A stretch of DNA of 64,000 nucleotides from Candidatus Kaiserbacteria bacterium (GCA_031430855.1 JANPCG010000012.1:496-64495); one strand, 5' to 3'. Shown: positions 24,499-48,411, numbered from the stretch's first letter. Numbers and translations: made by a program. Notes: generated by a model not told the origin, from the letters alone.

Positions 24499-24644
24499 TT
24501 GAGTTAGAGGGAGATTCTTTATCCTAATGAAATTATTCCTCTAGTCTAAAATATTATCCAAAAACGAGAAGGGAGATTCGGTCGTTAACACGACCAGTAC
24601 CCCAATTGGATAGTTTACCTCGCTTCGCTCCCAAACTATCTCAA

Positions 24645-24668
24645 TCGGGCTTCGAATCTCCCTCTCTC
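24645..24668 (+). repeat. tRNA-Ser 3'-end copy (att-like), inverted relative to the tRNA-Ser gene
   Basis: cttcgaatctccctctctc is an 18-19 nt perfect reverse complement of the gagagagggagattcgaa in tRNA-Ser at 39105-39123. Confidence 0.6.
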
Positions 24669-24871
24669 GCGCAAAATACAACAAAACCCAAACAAGGCTC
24701 AAGCTTTGTTTGGGTTTTGGTATTTGCGGGCTAGGTGAGTTAAGTACCCCCATGCTCAAGCCTTGTAAGGGTATTCTAGCACTTTTAGGGTAGGTCGATT
24801 TAGGTACGTGGGTCGGGGTCTGTGTATCGGAAAGGACGGCTCTTTTGCTCAGAATGAGACAAATGAGACAC

Positions 24872-25567
24872 CTACGCGTATTTGCCACCTCCTGTCTCGT
24901 CTGGGGCTATATAGAAGTCTATACGGGTCGCACCACTGTCACCGACAGGATCGTCAAAGGAGACAATCGGAGGCTTTCCCCTCGCTGAGTATTCAAGGGT
25001 TCTAAAGAGGTATCCAAGGTAGGATCCGGTATAGCGGTACCTGAGCATACATCCGACAATATGAGCGGTAACCTCATCAGGGTAGCCCTTCCACTTGTAT
25101 ATCTGAGGATAGAGATCCATCCAGTCATTCACGACATACGTCACCCATGTCACCAGTTCATCCCGAGCGCAGGTATTACCTTTCTGTGCTAACCGCACTA
25201 ACGACACAGTCATCTTGTTACAAATCTCCTTATCCTTGCCATCACTCCGAACGATAAACAGATAGAGCTTGTCTTTGTATTTAGCGAGGACTTTATCAAC
25301 TTCTTCCTGCTTCTCATAGAAACGAATCTTTTTGCACTTATACCGTACCCACTTCTTCTGGTACCTGCGGTCCAGCTGTTCCGTAATCGCATCCCAATCG
25401 GGAGTATCTTGCTCAGTTCTGAAGTGTTTGGTAACGCACAGGTAGACTGGCTGGGACTGTTTAAAAATCCACGAACTCGTAAATGTCTCTGGATTATGTG
25501 ACGCTAGGAGGTCATTGAGTTTTTGGATTGCGGTATGTATTTCAATGGAAATAGTATATCGAATTTT
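24872..25567 (-). pseudogene. Hypothetical protein, apparently 5'-truncated (open for 232 codons with no ATG/GTG/TTG upstream of residue 120)
   Basis: Hand translation is open from 25567 down to the M at 25213; the first candidate start leaves only 113 aa. Confidence 0.35.
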
Positions 25568-25950
25568 TTATAGCTGTGGAAAACTATTTCAAAATCAGGT
25601 GTACGGAGAAACCCTTATTTCGTATGTCTATTATCGCTGAAATAATTATAACCCTCCTGATAATAAAACAGTGAAAAACTGCGATTATAACACTGCCTAA
25701 CTTTTGTAATCTTTGCTAGGGTATTAATGCAGGTACGCTTGCGCAAAGATATACGCACGGATTGTCTAAGTGCAGTTAATGAAGACAATGGTGTATACGC
25801 CTCATATGGTGAGGAGTTTGAATACCAAATATAACCTTGATTCCAACGTGAAAGGAATCAAAACAATTTTTAGAGCAACCGATATCGGACTGAGTTGCTC
25901 GCATAATACCTAACTGCAAAAGACACACTTAATAATTAAGTGATTTTGCC

Positions 25951-27315
25951 ATGTCCAATGAAACAACAACGCTGGGAAACGAGCGTGATCTTAAGATCGA
26001 ATACGTTTCCATCTCGGAACTAACGTCACCAGAATACAACCCTCGGTTCTGGAGTGAAGAAAATAAGGAAGAACTTAAACAAAGCATTATTCGCTATGGA
26101 GTGGTAGATCCACTTCTGGTAAATAGTGCAGAAGAACGAAAAGGAATTGTGATTGGAGGAAACTTCAGACTCAGTGTCTTGAAGGAACTTGGTCACGATA
26201 CAGTACCAGTTGTATATATCTCCATCCCTGAACTCGAAAAAGAAAAGGAGCTGTGTCTTCGATTGAACAAAAACCAAGGTGAGTGGAACATGGAACTCCT
26301 GGCTCAATTCGATGAGACGTTCTTGTCTGACCTCGGCTTTGATTCAACAGAGCTCGATAAAGTTTTTGAAGAAGACGACAACGAAGAACAGTTTGACCTG
26401 AAGAAAGAATTGGAGAAAGTCGGTATTGATAATATTACCGTAGAGAAAGGTGACGTCTACGATCTCGATGGGTCACGCCTTATGTGCGGAGACTCCACTA
26501 TCGAAGCAGACATGCTCAAGCTATGTGGCGAACACAAGATAGATATGGTCATGACTGATCCGCCGTACATCCTCGATTATCTTCACGGCAAGACCAAGAA
26601 AGATGGAGAAGCTGTGACCGGCTTTGGTGCCAAGAAGAATCGTCGCTACCTTGAGACTGATGTATTGCCTGATAACTTCACGGAGTTATGGATGGATAAC
26701 GTGGTGAAGGTACAAAATGAGAACTTCTCAATTATCGTCTATGAGAACTGGAAGAATATTCGTACCGTTTGGGACGAGCTTGAAAAGCATTGGAAGGTAC
26801 GCAATATGCTCGTCTGGCATTTACCGAATCGTAACCAAGGATATGCGGGAAAGCTTAAGTTCTTCTCCAAGTACGACATCGCCATGGTTGCTACTTCAAC
26901 TGAAGAAACCGTGCCTGATGTTGAAACTGAGGATATCGAACTTGTTCAAAACGAGTACGATACCGCACTCTTTGCTATCTCTGGAAAACCGCAATGGGAG
27001 GGTTATCAGAAAGGATCAAAGTACTGCCCGACTGACTTCATTGAGTACAACGCTTCCGATGAGAAGTCGTCTGGTCAAGGAATCATCTTTGGCACGAAGC
27101 CAATTCAGATATTGATTCCGTATATCAAGATACTTACTAAACGAGACCAATTAGTATTGGAACCTTTTGGTGGTAGTGGCTCAACTCTGATTGCCTCAAC
27201 GAAACTAAGTCGGCGTTGCTTCATCATGGAAAAGTCTCCTGTCTATGCAGAGGTGATTCTTAATCGCTGGGAAAAGCTGACAGGAAAGAAGCGAGTTAAG
27301 GTCAATCATGAGTAG
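25951..27315 (+). CDS. ParB-like nuclease domain fused to a beta-class DNA methyltransferase
   Basis: N-terminal ParB/Srx fold (VDPLLVN..IVIGGNFR); C-terminal DPPY motif IV preceding FGGSGST motif I (circularly permuted order). Confidence 0.75.
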   Translation: MSNETTTLGNERDLKIEYVSISELTSPEYNPRFWSEENKEELKQSIIRYGVVDPLLVNSAEERKGIVIGGNFRLSVLKELGHDTVPVVYISIPELEKEKELCLRLNKNQGEWNMELLAQFDETFLSDLGFDSTELDKVFEEDDNEEQFDLKKELEKVGIDNITVEKGDVYDLDGSRLMCGDSTIEADMLKLCGEHKIDMVMTDPPYILDYLHGKTKKDGEAVTGFGAKKNRRYLETDVLPDNFTELWMDNVVKVQNENFSIIVYENWKNIRTVWDELEKHWKVRNMLVWHLPNRNQGYAGKLKFFSKYDIAMVATSTEETVPDVETEDIELVQNEYDTALFAISGKPQWEGYQKGSKYCPTDFIEYNASDEKSSGQGIIFGTKPIQILIPYIKILTKRDQLVLEPFGGSGSTLIASTKLSRRCFIMEKSPVYAEVILNRWEKLTGKKRVKVNHE

Positions 27316-27862
27316 ACTTCATGAAAAATCTAAAATCCTTCAAATACTCAGTGAGACACCACTGGTATCTTTGTCGTGCAAGAAGATTGGGGTGTCGCGA
27401 GCCACCTATTACCGCTGGTACAAAGATGACAAGAGCTTCCGAGATCAGGCGGATCAAATACTGGATATCGGCAGAAAGAATATAAATGATTTGGCTGAAC
27501 AATCACTCATCAAAGAGATAGCAAAAGGTAACATGGTGGCTGTACGCTTTTGGCTCCAGCACAATGATAAAAGATATGTACCTATCAGAACTACGTATGT
27601 ACCTCCTACAAATCACTTCCATAGATTAAATGTTGGAGAAGTTTGTTCGACGTGTGGTTATAGAGAAAAGGATCCAAAAGAACTTACATTGATTGCTAAC
27701 CACTCTGACGAACTCAAGGAAATAGAAACGGTTAAAAAGATGAGTAGAAAAGAACTTCATAAGAAGATTCTTGAAAAGAAAGCTATATTGCCAAGTAAAG
27801 AGCTGACCCAATATATGAACGAATTGTATAAGCGCAATAACCCAAGTGGTTATGACCTGTAG
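27308..27862 (+). CDS. HTH DNA-binding protein (terminase-small-subunit/regulator-like)
   Basis: CKKIGVSRATYYRWYKDD helix-turn-helix; start overlaps the methyltransferase stop. Confidence 0.5.
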   Translation: MSRLHEKSKILQILSETPLVSLSCKKIGVSRATYYRWYKDDKSFRDQADQILDIGRKNINDLAEQSLIKEIAKGNMVAVRFWLQHNDKRYVPIRTTYVPPTNHFHRLNVGEVCSTCGYREKDPKELTLIANHSDELKEIETVKKMSRKELHKKILEKKAILPSKELTQYMNELYKRNNPSGYDL

Positions 27863-27880
27863 TAATGGCTCAACATGAAC

Positions 27881-28135
27881 TTATTTAATTAAGATTAAAA
27901 ACAATAGGATAAATATAGTAACGAGGACTAAAGTAGTTACTTTTAGTAAAGTCTTAATGCTGAGTAAAGTGGCAACTGATTCAATTGACTTAGACTTAAT
28001 ATCTTCGATAACATCAAACAAAGTGTCGGTTGTAAATCCTTGTGTTAAGTTACGTTCAATGTTCGAAAGTCTGCCAACATCTTCTGAGATGGATAAAAGG
28101 AGTTCTTTCTCGGTGTACTGTTCAATATTTTTCAT
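27881..28135 (-). CDS. Small protein with C-terminal TM anchor
   Basis: 84 aa with a hydrophobic C-terminus. Confidence 0.25.
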   Translation of the reverse strand: MKNIEQYTEKELLLSISEDVGRLSNIERNLTQGFTTDTLFDVIEDIKSKSIESVATLLSIKTLLKVTTLVLVTIFILLFLILIK

Positions 28136-28437
28136 AAATCTTTGGACGGATTTTGTTGATAATGCGGACTAGGCAGGTAGCAAAAAGCTCCTAACCAGGC
28201 CGACACACCCCGTGAGGTATGCCCATACCAGTTTCCCAGTATGACCGTCCAAAGTAGCTCTGATTAGGAGTTCTTTACTTTGGACAGATTTGCGACCATA
28301 TCCTCAAGCGAACTTGAGGGGTTAGGTCTATATATTCAGTTGTTCTACGATGACAATAATAGCAAAAATATCGCTATCAGTCAGTACCTTAGCTTAGATT
28401 CCGAGCCTTGCGAAGGGGTCTGTTGCCAACACCTTAT

Positions 28438-29166
28438 CTAGCAAACCGTTGAGCCAATTGTCTCAAGTTTCTCCTTCACCTTCTCCCATTTAGGGAACTT
28501 CTGATCAAGGAAGGTAAAGAATCTTTTATCGTGATTCTTATACTTCATATGGCAGAGTTCGTGAACGATAACGTAGTCGATACAGTCCTTTGAAGTGTGA
28601 ATCAGTTTAGGGTTGAGGAATATCTTGTCTTGGTTCAAGAAACTACCCCAACGCTTCTTCATTTCTCGAATAGATAGCTTCGGCGTACTCTTGAAATCAA
28701 AGCGAGTAAGCATCTCGGTAAACCTATCTTGAAAGATGAGGTTAGTTTTCTCTGCAAACCAATTCTCGATAAGCTTCTTGTTGTGTTTGCCGTCGGTAAC
28801 TGATTTTGTTGTGAGAACAACGAGTTGACCTCGGGTAAGCGAAACAGAATCCTCTCTAGCTTTTCGAACAATGAGTTTGTATTGTCTACCGAGGTATAGG
28901 TATCCCTCGCCTGACACATATTCTTTTTCGTACATCTTTCGCTGGTACTTCTTAAAGAACGAAAGTTGCTTCTCTAGCCAGAACCACTTCTTTTGGAGAA
29001 AGGCTTCAATTCTTTCGCCTTCAGCTTTGAGGGGACACTTTACGATAATGCGTAAATCTGGAGTAACCGTGAGGCTCAGCGTTTTACGGTCTTGTTTAAT
29101 AAGTTGATATTCGTATATGAATGTTCCGAAGATAAATTCCTTCATATGATTATAAGAACAAATCAA
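28438..29166 (-). CDS. DUF45/YgjP-like zinc metallohydrolase (HExxH)
   Basis: VIVHELCHMKYKNHD motif; this family is commonly encoded beside type I hsdR. Confidence 0.6.
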   Translation of the reverse strand: MICSYNHMKEFIFGTFIYEYQLIKQDRKTLSLTVTPDLRIIVKCPLKAEGERIEAFLQKKWFWLEKQLSFFKKYQRKMYEKEYVSGEGYLYLGRQYKLIVRKAREDSVSLTRGQLVVLTTKSVTDGKHNKKLIENWFAEKTNLIFQDRFTEMLTRFDFKSTPKLSIREMKKRWGSFLNQDKIFLNPKLIHTSKDCIDYVIVHELCHMKYKNHDKRFFTFLDQKFPKWEKVKEKLETIGSTVC

Positions 29167-32100
29167 AATTATGCTCTGCTAGGAGCAGGGCGGTTTCAAT
29201 AACAACCTTGATCTGGTCGTTATCAATATCAATACCTTTCTCTCCCTTCACGATGTCATACAGATAGTCGTCAATACTATTTCGCATCTTGCGCTTCACG
29301 TCCGCATTTTTATACCAGTCGACGATTGCCTCGTTCTTGATGATGGTGAATATGTCGAGAATAGTAGCGATATAGACTTCCTCGCTGAGGTTCAGGTTAT
29401 CAAGTTCGACTCGAAGATTACGGTAGAACACATCTGAACCCTTTTGCGATTCAATCTGTTCTGGAAGGCTTTCATCTTTCTTGTTCACCACGTCGTCACT
29501 AATGAGTTTCATTTGCTTCAACGCTTCAACATCAGCGAGTTTGCCTTGACGCATCTTCTCAAGAATCTCTGAAATCTTCTTAGAAAACTTCTCGTAGAAT
29601 TCAGGATCACTATCCATTTTCTCTGAAATGGTTCTTTCAGTTTGTGCCGCGATTGCCTCAGCTTTTGACTTGTCAGAACCAAGGTTAGCCACCGCTTCCT
29701 CAAACTGCTTTCTGTCGGTAATGTTTACCTGCTTTGTGAGCAACTCAACGCCACGAGCATCAACATATTTATCAAGGATATTAATGAGTGATTGTTTGTA
29801 CTCAAGTAGATCAACACGGTCGGCATACTTTAGACTCGCAGACTTACGAAGTTCCAAGAACTTCTTGAGTTCACGCTTGTAGAGGTCGAGGTGATCGAAT
29901 TCATGAACGAAGTCTTGTAGCACAAAACACTCGTTCAGGTTTTTAATGAATGCATTAAGAGTCTTGTAGAACGTCTCACGTTTTGGTTGGTCAGATAGGA
30001 ATTGGAGATAGACTTCATCATCGGTTGATCCTTTGATTTCATTAAATAAATCATGGACGGTTCCATAACTCTGTTCTAGGTCTTGTATCTTCTCAGACAC
30101 ATCAATCAGAGTGCCTTTAACATCAGTCTCATCATAGTTACCGAAAAGCTTCATCGCTGTGTCGATGTTCTTAGCATTCTCGGAATAGTCCATGATGTAT
30201 CCGGCAGTCTTAGGCTTTTCCTTCTTGTTCTCAAACAAACGGTTTACACGCGCAATAGCCTGAAGCAAGTTGTGATCTTTTAGATCCTTGGCGAGATAGA
30301 GTACGGTGTTGCGTGGTGCATCAAAACCAGTGAGTAGTTTGTCGCACACAATAATGACCTCGATGCCATCGTCGTTATACTTAAAACTCCCGACGACATC
30401 CTTTTCGTATTTATCGACGCTACTGTGATTCTTACGAACTCCTTCTAGGTATCCGACTACTTCTTTCTTGTGGAGATTCTCCTCGTCTCCGTCTTCATGT
30501 TCATCAGAAATAATAACCGCCGTACGAATATTTCCCCGAGTCTCAAAGAACTTCTGGAAAAGGATGGCTGAGTATTTCGATGGAGCAACAATCTGAGCCT
30601 TGAGTCCGGTGTACTGGAAGTTCCTAATAAAGTGCGTTTCTATATCGTACGCAATTTCGACAATACGCTGAGGATTGTCTTTAATTATCTTACTTCCAAT
30701 GTATCGTTGTAGCTCTTTCTTCTGCTTCTCATTAAGTCCTTCGGTGATACGTTCAACATGGCGGTCTATTTGTTCCGCATTCTGAATGAGGTCTACATAC
30801 CGACCCTCATAGATAAGAGGGAGAATGATGTTATCAGCGAGAGCGTCATCAATGGTGTACTTATCGATGTAATCACCGAACTTCTTCCAACTCTCTCGGT
30901 CTTTCTTCATGAGTGGCGTACCAGTAAATCCGATGTAACAGGCATTTGGAATGATTCGATTCATCTCAAAGTTCGCCATACCGTTCTGACTTCGGTGTGC
31001 CTCATCAATAAGCACAAAGATATTTTTATCGTCGTCAACAAATCCCGTGCTCTTTTTTGCCGCAGATTCAAACTTCTGGACAAGCGTAGTTACTACCGAT
31101 AGATCCTTCTCTTTAATGAGGTCAATCAAGTGCTGACCACTGGTAGCCTGAACAACCTCTTTCTTGAGGTTACAGTTCTTAAACGTATCTTTGATCTGTT
31201 TATCCAAGTCACGACGGTCTGTCACAATAATGACTCGTGGATTGAGAATATGAGGATCCTCAATAAGAGCCTTCACAAACATCACCATAGTCAGTGACTT
31301 ACCTGATCCTTGGGTATGCCAGACGAGCCCACCTTTTCGGCGAGTGATCTCGTGGTCAGTTACTTCTTCCTCTTCCACTCGCTTCAACATCTTATGGATA
31401 GCAAAATACTGCTGGTAGCGTGAGAGCTTCTTTACTCCTGCGTCAAAGAGAATGTAATTTTTGGTCAAATCCAAAAGGCGTTTCGGCTCAAAGAGTGAAA
31501 ACACCCCTCGGTCTTGTTCTGTAGGGAGGCGGTCGGTTCTTTGTTTGTGACCATCCGTATAGCCGTTGAGGTCTTGTAGTACCTGAGCGTACACATCAGC
31601 ATCAATAGGCTTCTGAATCAGAGCGGTTACTTGTTCGTTAAATGTTTCTAGATCTGTGCCTTTTTCTTTCCATACCGCATAGAATTTGTTCGGTGTGCCA
31701 GTTGTTCCGTACTGTAGTTCCTTGCCGTTGGTAGCCACAAGGAGCTGGGTGTATGTGTACAGATTAGGGCAAAACTCAGAACTTTGGTTACGGTTCATTT
31801 GGTTAATCGCTTCACTTACCGCAACGCTCGACTTCTTGTTTTCAATGACTGCAAAAGGTAGCCCGTTAACGAACACCACGATATCTGGTCGTATGTTCTG
31901 CTTACCACTACAAGCATATTCAACAGATACGTGAAAAGCGTTATTGGCAATGTTTTCAAAATCTATGAACCGAAAGTTCTTTGATACTTTTTTACCGCCA
32001 TTATTAACCTTAATGGTCTTACCACCACTCGTCGGCATGATGGTGTTGTATATCTTCTGAGCAGTATCTATGAGTCCTTCGTATTGGATATGCTCAAGTT

Positions 32101-32341: not shown

Positions 32342-32345
32342 ATGT

Positions 32346-33623
32346 TTATGAGGTTATTTTGGCTGATAATGTTTCAGGTGTTCGGATGGTCCCAGTGATT
32401 AGGTTGTTGAGGAGATATCTTTTCTGTTCTTTGATGATGGACAGTTTCTTTTCCAGCTCGGTTATTTCTTTATCTGCGGTTATTAATATTTTTACAATGG
32501 CTTCTTGTTCTTCAATAGGAGGGAGTTTTAATTCAAACTTTGCCATATCCGATCCATACAGGTGAAAGACTGTGGTGCCTGAAACAAGTTTGATGACGTC
32601 TTTTTTATTTAGATTAACTAGGTAACAAAAGAAGAGTCCATTCAAACTACCATTGGATCTTATGATTAAGATATCTCCTCCTAAAATGATCCCATCTTTA
32701 TCTAGATAACTTGCTGTAGACAAACCTCGGGGAGTAACATCGGAAGTTGGCATGAGGATATCGTTTACTTTCGAAAGAACCATACCTTTATTGTAGTTTG
32801 TTTTGCTTATGATGTTCTCTATATACTCAGCGTACTTAGTAAATAGCTCTCCATAATGTATGGCTTCGTATTTTCCTTCAGAATCTAGGTCGTTCTTAGG
32901 CAAACCTTTACCTTTTTTAAATGACGCAATTTCTCCAAGTTTTACAGACTTCCACTTCTCACCAAATCCAGTTAATCGTCTTTTACCAGTTAGTAAATCC
33001 TGCATCAGACTTTTCTTGATCTGCTTTTTTACTTCAATTTTTCGCGTAAGCCTTTTAATTATCTGGTCCCAAGTTTCTATAACAGAGATAATACGACTTT
33101 GTTCTAGTAGGGGTGGGAGAGCAAGTTTGAATTTTTTAATCAACGGAATCGTCAATTGTGGCTGGGCACTGCCGAATGATACTCGCTTGAGCTCTCTTAA
33201 GAAATGAGACGAAATAAAATATTTATAGAGGAAGGCAGTCTCTAAATCAGTATCTACAGTTTTGTTTCTTAGTATTGCCATCCCAGAGTTAATCCTTACA
33301 TCAGCAAAAGGAACGTTCTCAGAATATGAAGCCACACTACCGATTGTGCCTCTGGTTGTAATCACAAGATCACCTCTTTCGAGCCTTCCTTTATTCATTG
33401 ATGAGTCCTTTGCTTTTGAAATAAATTGATTCTCACTAAAATTAAAACCTTGTTTTGTAACATTTGTGGCAGTAAGAAAAAGACAAAAACCATCAGTTGA
33501 AAAATCATCCTGATGCGGGTAGTTTTTACCCCTATCGCCGTCAATAACTTTTACCCCAACTTCCTGCAAAGTTAAATTTCTCCATCCTTGGGGTATATTT
33601 TTTTGTGATTGGTTAGTTTTCAT
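32346..33623 (-). CDS. hsdS: Type I restriction-modification specificity subunit
   Basis: Two TRDs separated by conserved LALPPLLEQ / LKLPPIEEQ coiled-coil spacers. Confidence 0.85.
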   Translation of the reverse strand: MKTNQSQKNIPQGWRNLTLQEVGVKVIDGDRGKNYPHQDDFSTDGFCLFLTATNVTKQGFNFSENQFISKAKDSSMNKGRLERGDLVITTRGTIGSVASYSENVPFADVRINSGMAILRNKTVDTDLETAFLYKYFISSHFLRELKRVSFGSAQPQLTIPLIKKFKLALPPLLEQSRIISVIETWDQIIKRLTRKIEVKKQIKKSLMQDLLTGKRRLTGFGEKWKSVKLGEIASFKKGKGLPKNDLDSEGKYEAIHYGELFTKYAEYIENIISKTNYNKGMVLSKVNDILMPTSDVTPRGLSTASYLDKDGIILGGDILIIRSNGSLNGLFFCYLVNLNKKDVIKLVSGTTVFHLYGSDMAKFELKLPPIEEQEAIVKILITADKEITELEKKLSIIKEQKRYLLNNLITGTIRTPETLSAKITS

Positions 33624-33625
33624 AA

Positions 33626-34936
33626 TTAACTCCCATTTAAAACCACATCTTGCCTAGCCTTAGCAACACAAATGTTATTCTTTATGGCATAGCACTCAAC
33701 ATAATGATTGCCAGAATATTTTGTATCCTCTATTTCATTTTTAGTTCGATTATCAGTTATTTCTCCTCTTGGCTGATCACAAGAACTATCGTTCTTAACT
33801 TTCCATTTAAAGATATTTACATCTGGAGAGTTTCCCGATATTAAGAATTTAATCTTCCTGTCTACGCTAATTAGCCCAATTTTATCTAGAATAAATTCTC
33901 TAAAACCACCCCTGCGCACTTGGACTTCTCCGCAGATCTTAAAATTGTATTGTTCTTCAAGTAAAGTTTTAATATTTTCGTCAAATATAAATTTCTCAGA
34001 CGGCGATCTCTTGTAAAAAGAAATATCTACTAGATTATCTGTAGAGTCTGAATCTCTCAGGTTTTCAAGTTTTATTAAAAAACCATCTCGAGCACAGAGT
34101 ATCTTTTCTTTCTGATCGGGTGTGAGTTTCGCTAGGTAATCATCAATAAATTTCGCACTATTTGCTCTATCTTGAATTTGATTAGGGGTATTAACAACGT
34201 TTGGTAAGTTTATAAAAAATGTAAAAATGGCATCAAAAATTTCAATGTTTGGATTTTGTTTAAATATTTTTGTAATTACTTGCTCAAGGTGAAAAGACTT
34301 GAGTTTCAAGTTTTGATCTTTATCGCATAGATTATTTTTCCATCTTTTAACAAACTTCACTGTCTTTCTAAAATCACTATTTATACCAACCTCAGTAGCA
34401 ACTTTAATGTATCCTCTAGGATCAGAGTTAATCCAAGCGTTTGTATCAGAAGCATTCCAAGTCAAAGTATTACGTTTGTTGTGGTTTCTCTCTTTAATCA
34501 CTTCCGGAACCTTATATGTATCCTGATTGAACTCATTTTTTCCGTATGAATAAGCAGGAACAATATCAACTGATAAAATCATGTCAGTGTTTTGCCAAAA
34601 CTCTACAGTAACTGAGTGTGTCTGTAGAGAAACCTTCTTCATGTAGCTTGTCGGATTTCTATAGCTACCACTTATTTCATTAAATAATTTTTGAAGTGTT
34701 GCTGAAGGTGAGTGATCATTTTCATCCCAAGAACCAAGAATATATAGAATATCCAGATCATGAATAGGTGTTATTGCTGTGAAGCGAGGATATGATCCTA
34801 TTTGAATACAGTTATTTACACCAAATAGGTCATTAAAAGACTGGTAGACTTTACCTATCAAATCTTGCTCGGTAGGTTTAGGTGAGAGTGTCTTCGCATA
34901 CTCTCGCAATTTTGAGTTGAATTTATCTTTTGTCAT
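33626..34936 (-). CDS. cGAS/DncV-like nucleotidyltransferase (CD-NTase/SMODS-type Pol-beta NTase)
   Basis: IGSYPRFTAITPIHDLDILYIL (GS-x11-DxD) and a third acidic motif SVDIVPA 52 aa later; 436 aa with a long helical C-terminus; coupled between hsdS and the 2-TM gene. Confidence 0.55.
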   Translation of the reverse strand: MTKDKFNSKLREYAKTLSPKPTEQDLIGKVYQSFNDLFGVNNCIQIGSYPRFTAITPIHDLDILYILGSWDENDHSPSATLQKLFNEISGSYRNPTSYMKKVSLQTHSVTVEFWQNTDMILSVDIVPAYSYGKNEFNQDTYKVPEVIKERNHNKRNTLTWNASDTNAWINSDPRGYIKVATEVGINSDFRKTVKFVKRWKNNLCDKDQNLKLKSFHLEQVITKIFKQNPNIEIFDAIFTFFINLPNVVNTPNQIQDRANSAKFIDDYLAKLTPDQKEKILCARDGFLIKLENLRDSDSTDNLVDISFYKRSPSEKFIFDENIKTLLEEQYNFKICGEVQVRRGGFREFILDKIGLISVDRKIKFLISGNSPDVNIFKWKVKNDSSCDQPRGEITDNRTKNEIEDTKYSGNHYVECYAIKNNICVAKARQDVVLNGS

Positions 34937-35468
34937 AACTTGTGCTCAGTAGAGTTGTCACTATGTCATTAATAAGACGACCTCGCATATTAACAATAGT
35001 AGTAAATTGCTGATTGTTTATTGCCTTCATCATTTCTGGAGAAATCACAATTGATGGGGGTGTGAACTCAGGAAAGTAAAAAATAAAACCCGCATTTGAT
35101 TTCTTGTTTGAAAGAATAGTTTTTATCTGGTCTTCAGTAAAAGACTGATAGTGTACTAACGCCAATGTAGTTTCTTTTACTTTTGACAGTGTGTCCGGTT
35201 TGATTTGGTAGATATTTTTTTCTCTAAAAACACCCGTGTCAACTAAATCTGTCTTTAACGATGAAAACATATCGTCATTAGCCACTATCGCAATTTTTCT
35301 ACTCCAACGACCAAACCCTAACCTTAAAAAGAGTGGATATACACCAAGAGTCCAACTCGTTATCGCCCAGATGAAAAGACATATAGCAAAGATCGTTGTT
35401 AGCGCTCCGACAATATTTACAAATATAGTTAAGAAATTTAGTAGAGTCATATATTTATTTAATTCCAA
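34923..35468 (-). CDS. 2-TM membrane protein with C-terminal alpha/beta domain, candidate effector partner of the NTase
   Basis: Two N-terminal TM helices (residues about 8-52) then an about 125-aa soluble domain; overlaps hsdM stop and NTase start by 14 nt each. Confidence 0.45.
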   Translation of the reverse strand: MELNKYMTLLNFLTIFVNIVGALTTIFAICLFIWAITSWTLGVYPLFLRLGFGRWSRKIAIVANDDMFSSLKTDLVDTGVFREKNIYQIKPDTLSKVKETTLALVHYQSFTEDQIKTILSNKKSNAGFIFYFPEFTPPSIVISPEMMKAINNQQFTTIVNMRGRLINDIVTTLLSTSYDKR

Positions 35469-36963
35469 GTTCTTTTAGATAAACAGCCATTTGTTTTTCA
35501 AGCTTCTGTAGCTCTGGTTCAAGTTCTGCAAGTTCTTTCAGGTTCGCAGTAATATCTACAGGGGCTTCTTCGGTGAAAGTATCTACGTAACGAGTGATGT
35601 TGAGGTTGAAATCGTTCTCCTCAATCTCTTTAAGACTCACTTTGCGAGCAAACTTTGCTACATCTTTACGAGTCTTGTAGGTAGAGTAAATCTTCTCGAT
35701 GTTTTCATCGGTCAGAATGTTCTGAGCCTTATTTGCCTTGAACTCCTTAGATGCTTCGATAAAGAAGACATCTTTCTTGCTTTCATTCTCTCCGCCTTTT
35801 TCTCGCGAACGGTCTAAGACGAGAATTGCTACTGGAATACCTGTGGTCTGGAATAGTCCGGCTGGGAGCCCAATAACTGCTTCGACGACGTTTTCCTTTA
35901 GAAGTTGTTCACGGATTTTACCCTCGGCTCCACCTCGAAAGAGAACACCATGAGGAACAATAACGGCAATGCGCCCTGTCTTTGGTTTTGCTGTTTCCAC
36001 CATGTGCGTGATAAAGGCAAAGTCACCTTTATCCTTCGGTGGAGTACCACGCCAGAAGCGCTTGTACTTGTCTGCATCCGCATGTTCCGCACCCCATTTC
36101 TTGAGAGAGAATGGTGGGTTCGATACTACCGTGTCGAACTTCATTAGACGATCGTCTTCAACGAGAAGTGGATTGTTGAGTGTGTCACCCCATTCCAGAC
36201 GAGCAGAATCCTTTCCGTGGAGGAACATATTCATGCGAGCAAGTTGATAGGTTGAACCTGTTGATTCCTGACCATACAGAGCGTAGTTTTTAGAGCCTTG
36301 TTTCTCTACTTCTTCACCAGCAAGGAGGAGGAGACCACCCGATCCGGCACAAGGGTCACAGATACGTGCGCCAGGCTTTGGTTCGGCAAGCCGTGCTACG
36401 AGATGAGCTACATTGCGAACGGTAAAAAATTCACCAGCTTTTTTACCTGCGTCTGCACCAAACTTCTCAATCAGGTACATGTAAGAGTTACCGATGATAT
36501 CGTCATTTACTCCTGTGAGATCAATCTTTGCAAAATCTTGTACGAGGTTGCGGAGCATCTTGTTACGCTCAGCAAGTTTGCCGAGGTTTGCTTCTGAGTT
36601 GAAGTCTACAGAAAATACACCATCAAGCTTTTCCTTGTTATGGTCTTCAATACGATGGAGTGCCTTGTTTATTTCTTCACCAAGGTTGTCTTGTTCGATG
36701 ATTGAGTAAATGTAATCAAACGATGACTTCGGAGGGAGGTAGAAGCGATCCAGCTTCATTTTTTCCTCGATACGCTTTTCGTCGCCAGCGAACCGCTTTT
36801 TGTATTCGTCGTGTGCTGTCTTTGATTTATCACTAAGATACTTCAAGAAAAGCATCGGAAGTACGTAGTTCATGTAGTCCGCCGCATTGAGCTGACTGCG
36901 TGAAGAGTTTGCCGAATCCCAAAGGGTCTTATTGAGGTCTTCCTGAGTGTATTTCTTAGTCAT
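35455..36963 (-). CDS. hsdM: Type I R-M N6-adenine DNA methyltransferase subunit
   Basis: Motif I DPCAGSGGLL and motif IV NPPF. Confidence 0.9.
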   Translation of the reverse strand: MTKKYTQEDLNKTLWDSANSSRSQLNAADYMNYVLPMLFLKYLSDKSKTAHDEYKKRFAGDEKRIEEKMKLDRFYLPPKSSFDYIYSIIEQDNLGEEINKALHRIEDHNKEKLDGVFSVDFNSEANLGKLAERNKMLRNLVQDFAKIDLTGVNDDIIGNSYMYLIEKFGADAGKKAGEFFTVRNVAHLVARLAEPKPGARICDPCAGSGGLLLLAGEEVEKQGSKNYALYGQESTGSTYQLARMNMFLHGKDSARLEWGDTLNNPLLVEDDRLMKFDTVVSNPPFSLKKWGAEHADADKYKRFWRGTPPKDKGDFAFITHMVETAKPKTGRIAVIVPHGVLFRGGAEGKIREQLLKENVVEAVIGLPAGLFQTTGIPVAILVLDRSREKGGENESKKDVFFIEASKEFKANKAQNILTDENIEKIYSTYKTRKDVAKFARKVSLKEIEENDFNLNITRYVDTFTEEAPVDITANLKELAELEPELQKLEKQMAVYLKELGIK

Positions 36964-36964
36964 A

Positions 36965-37567
36965 TTATTGGTTAATTAAATTAAAGCTGGCGTTGATAAT
37001 GGTTTTTTGGATCTCTTGCTTTCGTTTGTGTATTCGTTCTTGGTCGGTGATGTTTTCCTGAAGGGCTATGATCGACTTCTGTGTATGTACTGGCGGTAGG
37101 GGTATTTCAAAGTCGTTGAGGTTTTTTACGAGGATGCTCTGTATGTATGAGGCACCTGTAACTATTTGCGATAGTGCCTTTTGTCCGTCTGTTGAATTGA
37201 GATAAAGACAGACATACTTAGGTAGCGCAGTGACGTCTTTGATTCGAATGACATGAACCGATGATGATGGCATCACACGCATCTCATTTGAGGCAAAGAC
37301 AGCAGAGCGAAACGAACCAGCTCCTGAGCCTCTTGAAACAAGCAAAATATCGTTATACTGCAAAAAGTAGGGGGTTCTGAGTGATTTACCTGAAAACAGG
37401 GTCAGATCGCCCGTTTCAACCACTTCTTGATTCGGAGAGATATTCTTGGCTTGGAGCACGAAGATGTCGCCTTTAGGGTCATTTTCAATCGGTCCACGGA
37501 ACGTGTACCCAGAAGATATGTCTGCTATTTGGCTCAATTCCTTGTGCATGTATGGAGTGTACTGCAC
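36965..37567 (-). CDS. Half-size HsdS-like specificity protein (single TRD)
   Basis: 200 aa with one TRD plus conserved IPLPPVHTQKSIIALQ spacer; 1 nt upstream of hsdM. Confidence 0.6.
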   Translation of the reverse strand: MQYTPYMHKELSQIADISSGYTFRGPIENDPKGDIFVLQAKNISPNQEVVETGDLTLFSGKSLRTPYFLQYNDILLVSRGSGAGSFRSAVFASNEMRVMPSSSVHVIRIKDVTALPKYVCLYLNSTDGQKALSQIVTGASYIQSILVKNLNDFEIPLPPVHTQKSIIALQENITDQERIHKRKQEIQKTIINASFNLINQ

Positions 37568-37657
37568 TTATTGTAAAAAAGCAAATTCTGGTCAATTTGG
37601 CAACCTACATGAGTCGCACTGGACTCTTTAGGCGTTCGGCGTCATTGATGTGTTTGT

Positions 37658-38986
37658 ATGAATCAAGCAATATCAATGCCATACGGCACCAAAATACAGG
37701 AGGTAGTACCCGTAAAGGTGAAATACTGCCTTTACGCAAGAAAATCAACGGAATCAGAAGAACGCCAAGTTCTCTCTATAGATAGCCAGATTAAGGAGAT
37801 GCTCCAGCTGGCAGACCGAGAGTGCTTGGAGGTGGTGACAATGAAGCGAGAAAGTCACTCCGCGAAGGAGACTGGGCAACGACCAGTCTTTAACGAAATA
37901 GTCGAAGAGATAGGAGAAGGTAAATACAATGGAATTCTGACATGGGCACCAGACCGTATCAGCAGAAATGCCGGCGACCTTGGGAGAATTGTAGACTTAA
38001 TGGACTCAGGCAAGCTCGAAGAAATACGCACCTTCGGGCAGAAGTTCGGCAATAATCCAAACGAGAAGTTCCTGCTGATGATTTTGGGATCACAGGCAAA
38101 ACTCGAGAATGACAACCGCGGTATCAATGTGAAGCGAGGTTTGAGAACAAGAGCTGAGATGGGACTATGGTCGGGACAAGCTCCCTTAGGTTATCTAACC
38201 CAAGGGCTAATGGATAAGAAATGCCAGCTGATTATTGACCCACTCCGAGCATCAGCAGTGAAGCAGATGTTTGAAAAAGTAGCCTACGAACAATGGTCAG
38301 GACGCAAGGTATACAACTGGCTCCGCTTCGAGCTCAACTTCTATACAAGAGGAAATAAACCTCTCACCCTCGGAGGTGTGTACCGCATCCTAGAAAACCC
38401 TTTCTACTACGGCGTCTTCGAGCGACCACGTAAAAGTGGAAACTGGTATCAAGGTAAACATACGCCACTCATCACACAGGAGTTATTCGAGAAATCAAAA
38501 GCCCAGCTCAAGCGTGATCAGATAGTGCGTGAGACTAAAGAATTTGCCTTCACGAAACTTTTCACCTGCGGATACTGTGGATCAGGTATATCAGCTGAAG
38601 AGAAATGGAAACAACTCAAGGATGGTGGAGCAAATAGATACATATACTACTCCTGCTCACGAGCGCGAGACCGCAACTGCAAGAACATGTATATCCGCGA
38701 AGAAGATTTAATACTAGAACTCCTGAAGATATTGGATAAGGTAAATATCAATGAGCTTGGTATGAGGCAGAAGCTTGAGGATGAAATTGCACGGTTCAAT
38801 ATTTTCCAACGGTCGGTACTTGGAGCCAAAGAAAAGATAAAAACAGATGCAGATACTGATATACGAAACTACGCAAAGTACATACTGAAAGAAGGTACGA
38901 CGATTGAGAAACGTGAACTACTGGCGAACTTACGATCACGGATAATGTACAAAGATAAAACGCTCACCTTGATAGATGAGCGTTAA
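37658..38986 (+). CDS. Large serine recombinase (integrase/resolvase family)
   Basis: Catalytic YARKSTESEE..SIDSQ N-terminal domain, recombinase domain and C-terminal zinc ribbon (CGYCG..CSRARDRNC); likely start at MPYGTK (37676). Confidence 0.85.
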   Translation: MNQAISMPYGTKIQEVVPVKVKYCLYARKSTESEERQVLSIDSQIKEMLQLADRECLEVVTMKRESHSAKETGQRPVFNEIVEEIGEGKYNGILTWAPDRISRNAGDLGRIVDLMDSGKLEEIRTFGQKFGNNPNEKFLLMILGSQAKLENDNRGINVKRGLRTRAEMGLWSGQAPLGYLTQGLMDKKCQLIIDPLRASAVKQMFEKVAYEQWSGRKVYNWLRFELNFYTRGNKPLTLGGVYRILENPFYYGVFERPRKSGNWYQGKHTPLITQELFEKSKAQLKRDQIVRETKEFAFTKLFTCGYCGSGISAEEKWKQLKDGGANRYIYYSCSRARDRNCKNMYIREEDLILELLKILDKVNINELGMRQKLEDEIARFNIFQRSVLGAKEKIKTDADTDIRNYAKYILKEGTTIEKRELLANLRSRIMYKDKTLTLIDER

Positions 38987-39096
38987 ATCATAAAAGTTCG
39001 GTATCTCACGTACCTCAAGCTAAGTGGGTCAAAAGACTCGCTTAATTTTTTGGCTTGAAATAAGGGTACTCGGGTCACACCGATACTTAGTTCTAT

Positions 39097-39186
39097 TGGC
39101 GGAGAGAGGGAGATTCGAACTCCCGAGGAGGTTTCCCCCCTGACAGTTTTCAAGACTGTTCCATTCAACCGCTCTGGCATCTCTCC
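39097..39186 (-). tRNA. tRNA-Ser (anticodon UGA), type II with long variable arm, CCA encoded
   Basis: Reverse complement GGAGAGATGCCAGAGCGGTTGAATGG...CAGTCTTGAAAACTG...GGGAGTTCGAATCTCCCTCTCTCCGCCA folds as a class II tRNA. Confidence 0.85.
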
Positions 39187-39275
39187 AAATATGTAATTTT
39201 CTGCCGTCCGTTAGGAACAGATACTAGCAAATAATGGTGAAAATGTATACAGCTCTCATGCTACAATAATTCGTA

Positions 39276-39818: not shown

Positions 39819-39890
39819 GCTCTCATAGTTTAATGGATAGAATGCCAGTTTGCGGAATTGGCGATTCAGGTTCGATTCCTGGTGAGAGCA
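39819..39890 (+). tRNA. tRNA-Arg (anticodon reads GCG in my fold; unusual, uncertain)
   Basis: Acceptor GCTCTCA/TGAGAGC, T-arm TCAGG-TTCGATT-CCTGG, anticodon loop TTGCGGA; D-stem has two G-T wobbles. Confidence 0.55.
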
Positions 39891-40100
39891 CGAGTACAAA
39901 AATGAGCACCCTTCTGGGGTGCCATTTTTGTTCGTGCTCTCACAGAAACTGTGCCTGCGCACAGTTGCGACAGGAATCGAAAGTCGGAGTCATGTCGCTT
40001 TAGCGACAGACGAGACAGGGTCGTGAGTGACATAATTTTAGGGAGTGAAACGACCATAAAATTAGTCGACTCCTGACCGAACTTCCTGGTGAGAGCGGGT
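39884..40100 (+). repeat. About 210-bp tRNA-associated repeat, copy A, ending in a tRNA 3'-end copy
   Basis: About 85% identical to 40782-41000; begins in the tRNA-Arg 3' end and ends with cttcctggtgagagc. Confidence 0.7.
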
Positions 40101-48229: not shown

Positions 48230-48411
48230 CGTTACGTCTTTCAAGTCTCTACGCAAATGATTTTCTGTGGTCACGAGTTACTCAATATTCAATTGATTGA
48301 GGGCTCGGTCACAGATAATTTTCTTCGAAAATTTCTGTGACCACGACTCGCTCGTAAACATCGCTGCGTCTTTCGAGCCCCTACGCAAGCAACGCAGGTT
48401 GCTTGCTCATC

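What the first reader, a model, noticed from the sequence alone, without database searches (positions are those of the whole stretch)
24500..39190. About 14.6-kb island integrated at tRNA-Ser with large serine recombinase and tRNA 3'-end repeats
The recombinase gene ends 110 bp from the 3' end of tRNA-Ser(UGA). The 3'-terminal tRNA sequence agagggagattc(g) recurs at 24503-24518 and 24565-24582 just after the rpsT terminator, about 14.6 kb away. The segment carries mobile-element cargo: orphan ParB-MTase, HTH protein, truncated gene, type I R-M and a defence module. This fits an integrative element or defence island.
Basis: partly seen in the sequence, partly recalled or inferred. Interest (0 to 1): 0.7.

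Follow-up and report, generated by a model that had tools for sequence, protein, structure and literature searches.

The report
Serine-recombinase defence island in tRNA-Ser
A 14.4-kb mobile island carrying anti-phage defence genes sits precisely at the 3' end of a serine tRNA gene of a Patescibacteria (CPR) bacterium, apparently put there by a large serine recombinase, an enzyme class hardly known to target tRNA genes, and relatives of this recombinase lie next to serine tRNA genes in most related CPR loci examined.

Summary
Contigs of the same species (99.8-99.9% identical flanks) carry an empty rpsT/tRNA-Ser junction. Comparison gives a precise 14,373-bp insertion, window 24730-39102, bounded by a 4-bp core GCGG (24726-24729 and 39099-39102). 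They are resident tRNA-trailer features, not att repeats.

The recombinase is a bona fide large serine recombinase. The reconstructed attP has dyad symmetry (TACTTA-N11-GG-N11-TAAGTA) centred on GG, which is tRNA positions C71-C72. The island end supplies C75 and A76, so CCA becomes genome-encoded.

Cargo:
- a complete type I R-M system with a two-gene type I CBASS inserted between hsdM and hsdS
- a YgjP-like peptidase
- a LOOT RNA
- a ParB-methyltransferase
- a terS-like HTH protein

Relatives of the recombinase (67-95% identity) occur at at least 562 places in species-representative genomes, mostly Patescibacteria. In 50 of 80 loci a convergent tRNA-Ser, of any isoacceptor, lies within 4 kb downstream. 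Where checked it abuts a conserved attP arm. No paper describing this family turned up.

The parts
24704..24755 (.). attL: B arm (tRNA-Ser terminator/trailer, up to 24727), proposed crossover dinucleotide GG at 24728-24729 (core GCGG 24726-24729), then the P' arm GCTAGGTGAGTTAAGTACCCCC from 24730.
   Evidence: Alignment to the empty site breaks exactly at 24729. The P' arm motif is conserved in about 25 related loci.
24730..24871 (+). Conserved left-end leader of the element family: P' arm, GGGTCGGGGTC at 24810-24820, AATGAGACAAATGAGACAC at 24853-24871.
   Evidence: blastn and regex hits in L014, L026, L042, L069, L071, L074, L075, L077-L080, L082, L088 and L090. In the small elements this leader lies about 260 nt upstream of the recombinase gene.
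24872..25546 (-). Gene of about 224 aa, unknown function. It is full length, with ATT at the position of the homologues' ATG.
   Evidence: Homologues at 46-52% identity in L033, L015 and L024, always next to an att site. No Pfam or PHROG hit.
25951..27315 (+). ParB-N domain fused to an N6/N4 DNA methyltransferase.
   Evidence: Pfam PF02195 and PF01555; phrog_498 E=3e-72; present in 19 of 80 related loci.
27308..27862 (+). HTH protein resembling a small terminase subunit or transposase HTH.
   Evidence: PF13022 E=3e-7; phrog_24579 terS E=5e-7.
27881..28135 (-). 84-aa ORF downstream of the LOOT RNA, unknown function.
   Evidence: no family hits.
28202..28328 (-). LOOT RNA (Rfam RF03000).
   Evidence: 74.2 bits against a gathering score of 46.4. 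Relatives in about 19 of 80 recombinase loci with my own covariance model.
28438..29166 (-). YgjP-like metallopeptidase, linked to hsdR.
   Evidence: PF01863 E=2e-52. Conserved beside HsdR in L028 and L044.
29150..32341 (-). Type I restriction subunit HsdR.
   Evidence: PF04313, PF18766, PF22679; PADLOC REase_I E=1e-145.
32346..33623 (-). Type I specificity subunit HsdS with two target-recognition domains.
   Evidence: PF01420 twice; PADLOC Specificity_I E=3e-65.
33626..34936 (-). CBASS oligonucleotide cyclase (CD-NTase, SMODS plus AGS-C).
   Evidence: PADLOC PDLC00785 E=4e-184; PF18144, PF18134. GC is 0.334 for the two CBASS genes (33626-35468) against 0.433 for the host.
34923..35468 (-). 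CBASS 1-TM effector.
   Evidence: PADLOC PDLC00664 'Effector 1TM' E=2e-53.
35455..36963 (-). Type I methyltransferase HsdM.
   Evidence: PF02384 E=6e-100, PF12161; PADLOC MTase_I E=3e-123.
36965..37567 (-). Half-size HsdS with a single target-recognition domain.
   Evidence: PF01420 E=4e-10. Conserved in L028 (79%) and L044 (56%).
37658..38986 (+). Large serine recombinase (integrase), 442 aa; predicted nucleophile Ser30 in the motif YARKS.
   Evidence: PF00239, PF07508, PF13408; phrog_95 integrase E=2e-57; SPbeta SprA/YokA structure 9dxh E=6e-14; sequence.
39055..39128 (.). attR: P arm (...GGGTACTCGGGTCACACCGATACTTAGTTCTATTGGC), proposed crossover GG at 39101-39102 (core GCGG 39099-39102), then the B' arm, which is the tRNA-Ser acceptor and T-arm.
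   Evidence: The empty-site alignment resumes at 39094, a 9-nt near-identical overlap. P arm conserved in 53 sequences.
39097..39186 (-). tRNA-Ser(UGA), the target gene. It remains intact. C75 and A76 come from the island end: the gene reads CCGCCA when occupied and CCGCAA when empty.
   Evidence: ARAGORN gives 90 nt here and 88 nt in the empty sites; sequences.
24506..24719 (.). NOT part of the island. Resident rpsT/tRNA-Ser spacer holding tRNA 3'-end echoes (24506-24517 direct, 24567-24581 direct, 24651-24668 inverted), a strongly folding element at 24565-24672, and the tRNA terminator hairpin at 24682-24719.
   Evidence: Identical in empty-site contigs. Folding -57.1 kcal/mol, z = -7.4 on the minus strand. 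In the empty site it is part of a palindrome that gives a 77-nt, 87%-identical reverse self-match with the tRNA 3' end.

Best explanation
Window 24730-39102 is a 14,373-bp integrative element in the chromosome of a Patescibacteria (CPR) bacterium. It was inserted by its own large serine recombinase (37658-38986) into the extreme 3' end of tRNA-Ser(UGA).

Inferred mechanism:
- The circular element carries attP. This is the P arm ...CCGATACTTAGTTCTATTGGC, then GG, then the P' arm GCTAGGTGAGTTAAGTACCC.
- Recombinase dimers bind attP and attB. attB is the tRNA's terminator and trailer on one side and the DNA for the acceptor stem and T-arm on the other.
- The recombinase cuts both sites at a 2-nt crossover, most likely the GG that encodes C71-C72, then rotates and religates the ends.
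- Because GCGG is common to both sites, the tRNA sequence is unchanged up to C74. The P arm then supplies C75 and A76.
- The tRNA loses its native palindromic terminator, which now lies 14.4 kb away at attL.

The element carries no capsid or conjugation genes. Its payload is defence: a type I R-M system whose hsdM-hsdS gap holds a type I CBASS. It also has a backbone shared with relatives: a leader, a 224-aa protein, a ParB-methyltransferase, a terS-like HTH protein and a LOOT RNA.

Shown: the precise presence/absence polymorphism, the junction sequences, the domain content, and the family-wide link to tRNA-Ser with conserved arms.

Inferred: catalysis by this protein, the exact crossover dinucleotide, current mobility, and how the element moves between cells.
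For: 1. Empty sites. L001, L002, L003 and L008, from four samples, are 99.8-99.9% identical to the flanks. Alignments stop at 24729 and resume at 39094.
2. The attB rebuilt by joining 24679-24729 to 39103-39153 occurs exactly in L001.
3. The same left junction and the same recombinase-side cargo are present in sample SRR20217180 (L004, L011).
4. The recombinase has the complete large-serine-recombinase domain set.
5. The reconstructed attP has its best dyad symmetry (13 of 24) centred on the GG of GCGG.
6. Consensus half-sites from 53 P arms, 25 P' arms and 58 tRNA arms share conserved bases in the same register about that GG.
7. Family link:
   - at least 562 related stretches in species-representative genomes;
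   - in 80 loci, 16 have a convergent tRNA-Ser less than 300 bp after the recombinase gene and 34 more have one within 4 kb, with anticodons tga, gct, cga and gga, plus one tRNA-Asp;
   - nearly all of those tRNAs whose flanks were printed abut the conserved P arm CCGATAnnAAnTTGTCnnGGCGG.
8. Foreign origin. Tetranucleotide distance z = 11.1; GC 0.410 against 0.433.
9. Horizontal spread. The recombinase is 74-83% identical where host rpsT is 43-54% and RuvA 33-44% identical (L026, L033, L065).
Against: - No excised circle of this particular element was found. The exact attP junction has 0 hits in viral contigs and in metagenome contigs. Raw reads could not be searched.
- No recombination directionality factor was identified.
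- attB has no obvious dyad symmetry. Its B arm is just a T-rich terminator region, which is unusual for characterised large serine recombinases.
- The crossover could be any dinucleotide within GCGG.
- Presence/absence alone cannot tell a recent insertion from a recent precise excision.
- In 17 of 80 loci the recombinase gene sits directly beside hsdM, so a role connected to the R-M locus cannot be formally excluded.
Confidence: 0.85

Rival explanations
1. One reading: a tRNA-targeting island of the classical kind, whose ends are direct repeats of the tRNA 3' end at 24503-24582 and in the tRNA itself, giving an island of 24500-39190.
For: The repeats are real and non-random. Two of them are in direct orientation relative to the tRNA.
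Against: All three copies sit unchanged in the empty-site contigs. The insertion point is 24729/24730, 150-220 bp to their right. No tyrosine integrase is present. Similar echoes of a tRNA's own 3' end lie downstream of tRNA-Arg(gcg) and tRNA-Val in this window, with no island there, and at tRNA-Ser of a related species.
Confidence: 0.03
2. The recombinase is a DNA invertase that phase-varies the type I R-M specificity genes (an hsdS shufflon). The island arrived by some other route.
For: A half-size hsdS lies next to the recombinase gene and a full hsdS lies 3.3 kb away. hsdM is the immediate divergent neighbour of the recombinase gene in 17 of 80 loci. Some sources annotate relatives as 'DNA invertase Pin-like'.
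Against: Both hsdS genes are on the same strand and share no inverted repeats. The protein has the large C-terminal Recombinase and Zn-ribbon domains of integrases. Its conserved P arm abuts tRNA-Ser whether or not an R-M system is present. Elements of 2.9-4.4 kb have no R-M system at all.
Confidence: 0.04
3. The segment is a decayed prophage or a phage satellite that uses a serine integrase. Its ParB-methyltransferase and terS-like genes are what remains of a phage, and it moves by hijacking a helper phage's capsids.
For: Hits to phage families: ParB-MTase phrog_498 E=3e-72, terS-like phrog_24579 E=5e-7, integrase phrog_95. Small-terminase-like genes are typical of satellites (general knowledge).
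Against: No capsid, portal, large terminase, tail or lysis genes in 14.4 kb. The closest recombinases in 50,697 phage records are only 25-29% identical. The island's right-end sequence and its attP junction are absent from viral contigs. This reading is compatible with the best explanation for integration; it differs only on how the element transfers.
Confidence: 0.15
4. The island is ancestral and fixed, and the 'empty' contigs are deletion or assembly artefacts.
For: Metagenome assemblers can collapse or skip strain-variable segments.
Against: Four independent contigs from different samples give the same junction to the base. That junction reconstitutes a complete tRNA-Ser with its palindromic terminator. 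The composition of the segment is foreign.
Confidence: 0.03

Closest known systems
Large serine recombinase integrases of phages and islands (SPbeta SprA/YokA, A118, Bxb1, phiC31, TP901-1, Wolbachia phage WO)
   Same: The same three-domain architecture (Resolvase, Recombinase, Zn ribbon). The gene sits next to one att site. The junctions share only a very short identity, and attP has imperfect dyad symmetry. There is a significant sequence match to the solved SprA structure.
   Different: Only 25-29% identical to any recombinase in the phage collection. The target is the 3' end of a tRNA gene. [quoted passage not shown] Mageeney 2020 (PMC7192596) found 14 such cases among 297 and called them unreported and in need of proof. 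The B arm appears unconstrained apart from being T-rich.
phiRSM filamentous phage integrase of Ralstonia (small, resolvase-like serine recombinase)
   Same: It is a serine recombinase shown experimentally to integrate at the 3' end of a tRNA-Ser gene. Its attP/attB core is TGGCGGAGAGGGT (PMC3816273). That is the sequence class found at attR here (TTGGCGGAGAGAGGG).
   Different: phiRSM Int is a small recombinase without the Recombinase and Zn-ribbon domains. It shares a 13-nt core with its target and belongs to an inovirus of Betaproteobacteria. It did not appear among the 25 best of 296 tblastn hits in the phage collection. Any relationship beyond the catalytic domain was not tested.
Classical tRNA-gene genomic islands with tyrosine integrases (Islander type)
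   Same: The island lies at the 3' side of a tRNA gene. The integrase gene is at the tRNA-proximal end. The tRNA is preserved by sequence carried on the element. The cargo consists of accessory and defence genes.
   Different: There is no tyrosine integrase, and no displaced tRNA fragment at the far end: only GCGG (9 nt with one mismatch) is shared. The crossover lies in the last acceptor-stem base pairs rather than in the anticodon or T loop.
SCCmec and Ccr recombinases (serine recombinases inserting at the 3' end of rlmH); comparison from general knowledge, not tested here
   Same: Serine-recombinase-driven cargo islands that insert at the 3' end of a conserved housekeeping gene without inactivating it, and that can form tandem or composite arrays.
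   Different: A different target (a protein-coding gene), different hosts (staphylococci), paired Ccr recombinases, and longer direct repeats.
Type I R-M loci with embedded defence genes, and type I CBASS
   Same: hsdR, hsdS, hsdM and a YgjP-like gene, with a CD-NTase and a 1-TM effector inserted between hsdM and hsdS. The same slot holds other modules in sister elements L028 and L044.
   Different: Nothing unusual in the systems themselves. The notable point is that they ride on a serine-recombinase element in a CPR genome.

Membership tests
Large serine recombinase (serine integrase) | N-terminal resolvase catalytic domain with a serine nucleophile | tested here: met
   PF00239 E=3e-17, residues 25-170; motif LYARKS(30)TESEERQ in the translation.
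Large serine recombinase (serine integrase) | C-terminal Recombinase domain and zinc-ribbon domain | tested here: met
   PF07508 E=3e-11 and PF13408 E=2e-9. Aligns over residues 26-380 with SPbeta SprA.
Large serine recombinase (serine integrase) | Short att sites with a 2-bp crossover, imperfect inverted half-sites, and no long direct repeats at the element ends | tested here: met
   The junctions share only GCGG. attP symmetry is centred on GG. Half-site consensuses are in register. The exact crossover is inferred, not measured.
Large serine recombinase (serine integrase) | Catalyses unidirectional attP x attB recombination, with excision needing a directionality factor | not testable with these tools
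Tyrosine-integrase tRNA-gene island (Islander type) | Tyrosine (Phage_integrase) recombinase on the island | tested here: not met
   No such domain in any island ORF scanned.
Tyrosine-integrase tRNA-gene island (Islander type) | A displaced tRNA 3' fragment forms a direct repeat at the distal end | tested here: not met
   The tRNA-like repeats are also in the empty site. The true distal junction shares only GCGG.
Invertible hsdS shufflon (phase-variable type I R-M) | hsdS copies in opposite orientation that share inverted repeats | tested here: not met
   Both hsdS genes are on the minus strand, with no inverted repeat between them.
Type I restriction-modification system | HsdR, HsdM and HsdS genes present and full length | tested here: met
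   (E values from 1e-145 to 3e-65).
CBASS type I | CD-NTase cyclase and an adjacent effector, with no Cap2/Cap3 or HORMA/TRIP13 accessory genes | tested here: met
   PDLC00785 E=4e-184 and 1-TM effector PDLC00664 E=2e-53, adjacent and overlapping. The neighbouring genes are hsdM and hsdS.
LOOT RNA (Rfam RF03000) | Score above the Rfam gathering threshold over the full model | tested here: met
   74.2 bits against 46.4, model positions 1-121 of 121. Compensatory changes in 17 of 23 predicted pairs among 13 relatives.
Prophage, or ICE/IME | Capsid, portal and large terminase genes, or relaxase and type IV secretion genes | tested here: not met
   None found with Pfam or PHROGs. There are only ParB-MTase and weak terS-like hits.
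phiRSM-type small serine recombinase integration module | Small (resolvase-size) recombinase with a 13-nt attP/attB core equal to the tRNA-Ser 3' end | tested here: not met
   The protein is 442 aa with large C-terminal domains and the shared core is 4 nt. The target gene class is the same.

The most novel reading that the evidence does not exclude
The window holds one member of a very widespread, so far undescribed family of Patescibacteria integrative elements, defined by four things:
- A highly conserved large serine recombinase (67-95% identity across CPR classes).
- A target made of the nucleotides that define every tRNA-Ser acceptor end (G73, C72, C71, U70...). This would let one enzyme use any serine isoacceptor in very distant hosts.
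- A conserved leader next to the P' arm.
- A LOOT RNA, a structured RNA that, as far as I recall (not verified here), had no assigned organism or function.

The elements range from 2.9-kb minimal units to 14-kb defence carriers. They pile up in tandem, possibly because the P' arm resembles the tRNA half-site, so that attL can act as a second attB.
Probability: 0.4. Interest if true: 0.75.

Novelty: new variant of a known kind. Interest (0 to 1): 0.62.

Why it matters
- **Target choice.** tRNA genes are the textbook targets of tyrosine integrases. For large serine recombinases the literature I could read says this is either unknown (PMC4383910) or rests on 14 unverified computational calls (PMC7192596). 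Here one precise empty/occupied pair and about 50 related loci show a large-serine-recombinase family dedicated to tRNA-Ser 3' ends.
- **A possible genetic tool.** CPR/Patescibacteria are very hard to manipulate genetically. A single-protein, cofactor-free integrase with a natural landing site in each of the CPR genomes examined here could make a practical integration vector.
- **Defence spread in tiny genomes.** The island shows how reduced CPR genomes acquire and swap defence systems: type I R-M with an exchangeable slot holding CBASS or other modules.
- **LOOT RNA.** The association gives this orphan RNA a genomic home on a mobile element.

Tried and rejected
- **tRNA-end repeats as att sites.** Rejected, because they are present in the empty site.
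- **The 24565-24672 structure as a tRNA pseudogene or known RNA.** ARAGORN finds nothing there. The best Rfam E-values are above 0.2. The 16-bp outer stem is not tRNA-like. It remains unexplained. Its inverted copy belongs to a palindromic tRNA trailer that is also seen in related species L092.
- **hsdS shufflon.** Rejected: no inverted hsdS repeats.
- **Exact attP junction and island right end in viral contigs.** 0 hits.
- **Exact attP junction in metagenome contigs.** 0 hits.
- **Locating far ends of related islands by dyad symmetry alone.** Too weak: it works only for the window. It was replaced by a search for the P' motif.
- **Circular contigs.** None of the attP-bearing contigs has a terminal overlap, so no episomal form was shown. 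L098 shows that at least some attP-like junctions come from tandem arrays.
- **Synteny in a related species** (L092, RuvA 74% identical). The locus there has a different 4.3-kb insert and no recombinase. This was useful only for the trailer architecture.
- **Literature searches** for Patescibacteria or CPR serine recombinases at tRNA-Ser returned nothing relevant.

Full report
**1. The observation**

ARAGORN places tRNA-Ser(tga) at 39097-39186 on the minus strand. A 442-aa ORF at 37658-38986 (+) ends 110 nt from the tRNA 3' end. It carries the Resolvase, Recombinase and Zn_ribbon_recom domains of a large serine recombinase.

AGAGGGAGATTC lies at 24506-24517 and AGGGAGATTCG at 24570-24580. The 10-mer AGGGAGATTC occurs four times in the window against 0.18 expected, and no shuffle reaches four.

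The cargo list is right. It comprises a ParB-methyltransferase, an HTH protein, and HsdR, HsdS, HsdM plus a half-size HsdS. The defence module is identified by PADLOC as a type I CBASS, with cyclase E=4e-184 and 1-TM effector E=2e-53.

**2. The decisive test: an empty site**

I looked up contigs that encode exactly the same S20 protein. This returned contigs of the same species in which rpsT is followed after about 250 bp by tRNA-Ser and then by the 156-aa gene that lies at 39276 in the window.

- L001, L002, L003 and L008 come from four samples and are 99.8-99.9% identical to the window flanks.
- Their alignments stop at 24729 and resume at 39094. The overlap is 9 nt: TATTTGCGG against TATTGGCGG.
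- Joining window 24679-24729 to 39103-39153 gives a sequence that occurs exactly in L001.

The island is therefore a precise 14,373-bp insertion (24730-39102) flanked by the core GCGG at 24726-24729 and 39099-39102. L004 and L011, both from sample SRR20217180, carry the occupied state.

Composition agrees. The island's tetranucleotide distance from the host is 11 sd above that of host windows of the same size. GC is 0.410 against 0.433, with the CBASS genes at 0.334.

**3.

All three tRNA-like copies, and the strongly folding element between them (24565-24672; -57.1 kcal/mol, z = -7.4 on the minus strand), are present base for base in the empty site. They cannot be products of this integration.

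In the empty site the inverted copy, the hairpin at 24682-24719 and the tRNA 3' end form one long palindrome, seen as a 77-nt reverse self-match at 87% identity. The island has split its right arm.

The same arrangement recurs elsewhere:
- An inverted copy of a tRNA's own acceptor 3' strand, 36-52 nt downstream and just beyond a terminator-like hairpin, occurs at tRNA-Arg(gcg) and tRNA-Val in this window.
- tRNA-Arg(gcg) also has a direct 12-mer echo at 40085-40096.
- A related species (L092, RuvA 74% identical) has the same arrangement at its tRNA-Ser, with different sequence.

The inverted copy is thus a host feature of tRNA trailers. The two direct copies are unexplained; they could be scars of older events.

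The 'truncated gene' at the left end is full length against three homologues. It has ATT where they have ATG.

**4. Anatomy of the recombination sites**

- attB: ...GGTTTTGGTATTT GCGG AGAGAGGGAGATTCGAAC...
- attL: ...GGTATTT GCGG GCTAGGTGAGTTAAGTACC...
- attR: ...CCGATACTTAGTTCTATTG GCGG AGAGAGGG...

The reconstructed attP has its best dyad symmetry (13 of 24) centred on the second GG of the core, as TACTTA-N11-GG-N11-TAAGTA.

Numbering the tRNA from its 3' end gives:

| Window position | tRNA position |
|---|---|
| 39097 | A76 |
| 39100 | G73 |
| 39101-39102 | C72, C71 |

The proposed crossover therefore lies in the last two acceptor-stem pairs. In the empty site the gene reads ...CCGCAAATACC, so CCA is not encoded (ARAGORN nt). 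In the occupied site it reads ...CCGCCAATAG (90 nt). The element therefore donates C75 and A76.

This geometry is what a serine recombinase predicts and what a tyrosine integrase does not: a 4-bp shared core, no displaced tRNA fragment, and the recombinase gene next to the P arm.

**5. The family**

The recombinase has thousands of close relatives. The top 120 protein clusters are all at least 81% identical. In the species-representative genome collection at least 562 stretches encode a relative. The best 80 are 67-95% identical, and most carry Patescibacteria names (Saccharibacteria, Paceibacteria, Magasanikbacteria, Nomurabacteria, Uhrbacteria and others). A minority carry other names; those may be mis-binned contigs, which I did not check.

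The host of the window is itself a Patescibacteria member. The named RuvA relatives are Patescibacteria, Parcubacteria and Paceibacteria.

*Link to tRNA-Ser in the 80 loci:*
- 16 have a convergent tRNA-Ser less than 300 bp after the recombinase gene.
- 34 more have one within 4 kb.
- One has tRNA-Asp.
- Anticodons include tga, gct, cga and gga.
- Nearly all of those tRNAs whose flanks were printed are preceded by the same arm, CCGATAnnAAnTTGTCnnGGCGG|AGAG.

*Conserved left end.* The left end is conserved too: core, then a P' arm (G/T)(C/G)TA-N5-GTT(A/C)AGT(A/G)CC, then GGGTCGGGGTC, then AATGAGACAAATGAGACAC. It was found in about 25 loci.

*Element size.* Pairing left and right ends gives elements of 2.9 kb to more than 14 kb. 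In the smallest, the leader lies directly upstream of the recombinase gene.

*Half-sites.* Consensus half-sites for P (n=53), P' (n=25) and the tRNA arm (n=58) share bases in one register about the GG. The B arm (n=16) is only T-rich and is often the tRNA's terminator.

*Horizontal spread.* The recombinase is far better conserved than host genes in the same contigs: 74-83% against 43-54% for S20 and 33-44% for RuvA. Together with the different isoacceptors and flanks, this indicates horizontal spread rather than one ancient insertion.

**6. Backbone and cargo**

- A ParB-methyltransferase occurs in 19 of 80 loci.
- hsdM is the divergent neighbour of the recombinase gene in 17 of 80.
- L028 and L044 carry the same R-M system (HsdR 85-92% identical). 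The hsdM-hsdS gap there holds other genes: a SMODS-like nucleotidyltransferase with DUF4160, or an AAA_15/AAA_21 ATPase. The CBASS here is therefore one filling of a variable slot.
- The LOOT RNA at 28202-28328 (Rfam 74.2 bits) is a family component. nhmmer and a covariance model built from 13 copies find it in about 19 of 80 loci, almost always on the strand opposite the recombinase gene. New hits outside the training set score 38-88 bits, and 17 of 23 predicted pairs show compensatory changes.

**7. Mobility state**

- The exact attP junction of this element was not found in viral or JGI metagenome contigs. Raw reads could not be searched.
- A degenerate attP pattern found 26 metagenome contigs, and similar junctions occur in six genome contigs.
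- None has the terminal overlap of a circular assembly.
- L098 has two recombinase-bearing elements in tandem beside tRNA-Ser.
- L110 reads recombinase - attP - ParB-methyltransferase - HTH. That is the order expected both for a circle of a window-like element and for a tandem array.

Excision is therefore plausible but not shown.

**8. Comparison with what is known**

The protein is a member of the large serine recombinases by every sequence criterion. It is remote from characterised ones: SPbeta SprA E=6e-14 and at most 29% identity to any phage-encoded relative.

Literature on tRNA targets for serine recombinases:
- Mageeney et al. 2020 found 14 of 297 such cases and asked for experimental proof.
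- The one experimentally supported precedent I found is the small serine recombinase of Ralstonia phage phiRSM. Its core, TGGCGGAGAGGGT, is the 3' end of tRNA-Ser(UCG). That is the same target class, but a different protein architecture and a much longer core.
- Five literature searches found nothing on such elements in Patescibacteria. The library lacks most subscription-journal papers, so prior description elsewhere cannot be excluded.

**9. Verdict**

The island and its link to the recombinase and the tRNA are real.

As a single locus this is a defence island on a serine-recombinase element, which is a known kind. The tRNA-Ser target, the 4-bp core inside the acceptor stem, the spread across the CPR and the LOOT RNA association make it a new variant worth following up, especially as a possible integration tool for CPR genetics.

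Noticed in passing
window 28202-28328 (-); also L066, L052, L051, L038, L026, L025, L014, L053, L048, L027, L033, L012, L044, L069, L083, L064, L091, L061, L018: The LOOT RNA (Rfam RF03000, function unknown) lies inside the island. It recurs in about 19 of 80 related recombinase loci, almost always on the strand opposite the recombinase gene and often near the ParB-methyltransferase/HTH module. It looks like a component of this mobile-element family.
   Followed up: partly
window 24565-24672: A roughly 108-nt element in the resident rpsT/tRNA-Ser spacer folds very strongly (-57.1 kcal/mol, z = -7.4 on the minus strand). It has a 16-bp outer stem made of a tRNA-Ser 3'-end copy and its complement, two inner hairpins, and a U5 run after it on the minus strand. 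There is no Rfam match. It is present in the empty-site contigs, and its function is unknown.
   Followed up: partly
window 39878-40096, 48400-48454, 24651-24668; L092 1106-1180: Several tRNA genes (Ser, Arg-gcg, Val) are followed, 36-52 nt downstream and beyond a terminator-like hairpin, by an inverted copy of their own acceptor 3' strand. tRNA-Arg(gcg) also has a direct 12-mer echo at 40085-40096. A related species shows the same layout at tRNA-Ser with different sequence, which suggests a conserved trailer structure.
   Followed up: partly
window 24640-24655 (-) and 40172-40187 (+): An identical 16-mer, TCGAAGCCCGATTGAG, is shared between the structured element downstream of tRNA-Ser and the region downstream of tRNA-Arg(gcg). 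It may be a small repeated element linked to tRNA trailers.
   Followed up: no
window 33626-35468; L028 6015-7763; L044 5613-7424: The gap between hsdM and hsdS of one conserved type I R-M backbone holds three different inserts in three elements. Here it is a type I CBASS. In L028 it is a SMODS-like nucleotidyltransferase, a 155-aa ORF and a DUF4160 protein. In L044 it is an AAA_15/AAA_21 ATPase.
   Followed up: partly
L098 5152-9363; L069 2-1969; L067 14393-15002; L042 9018; L074 9604; L077 9642; L082 7397; L096-L121: Complete attP-like junctions (P arm + GCGG + P' arm) occur inside chromosomal contigs. These include two recombinase elements in tandem (L098) and units of about 1 kb repeated three times (L069). 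This suggests tandem accretion, perhaps because the P' arm resembles the tRNA half-site.
   Followed up: partly
L092 1241-5477: In a related species (RuvA 74% identical) the same rpsT to tRNA-Ser 3' interval holds a different 4.3-kb insert of two large genes (443 and 970 aa). They have no Pfam match and there is no recombinase. The interval may be a general hot spot.
   Followed up: partly
window 25544-25546 (-): The 224-aa left-end gene has ATT where three homologues have their ATG start. This is either a rare ATT start or a recent start-codon loss. Homologues of this gene always lie next to an att site, on either side of it.
   Followed up: partly
L027, L037, L039, L041, L050, L067, L069: ARAGORN calls several of the targeted genes tRNA-Ser with anticodon 'act', which is not a normal serine anticodon. 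This may be a miscall or an unusual tRNA in these CPR genomes.
   Followed up: no
L008 1417-1515 versus window 39883-39981: The last 99 nt of this short empty-site contig match the window in reverse orientation just after tRNA-Arg(gcg). This may be an assembly artefact at the palindromic tRNA trailer or a local inversion.
   Followed up: no
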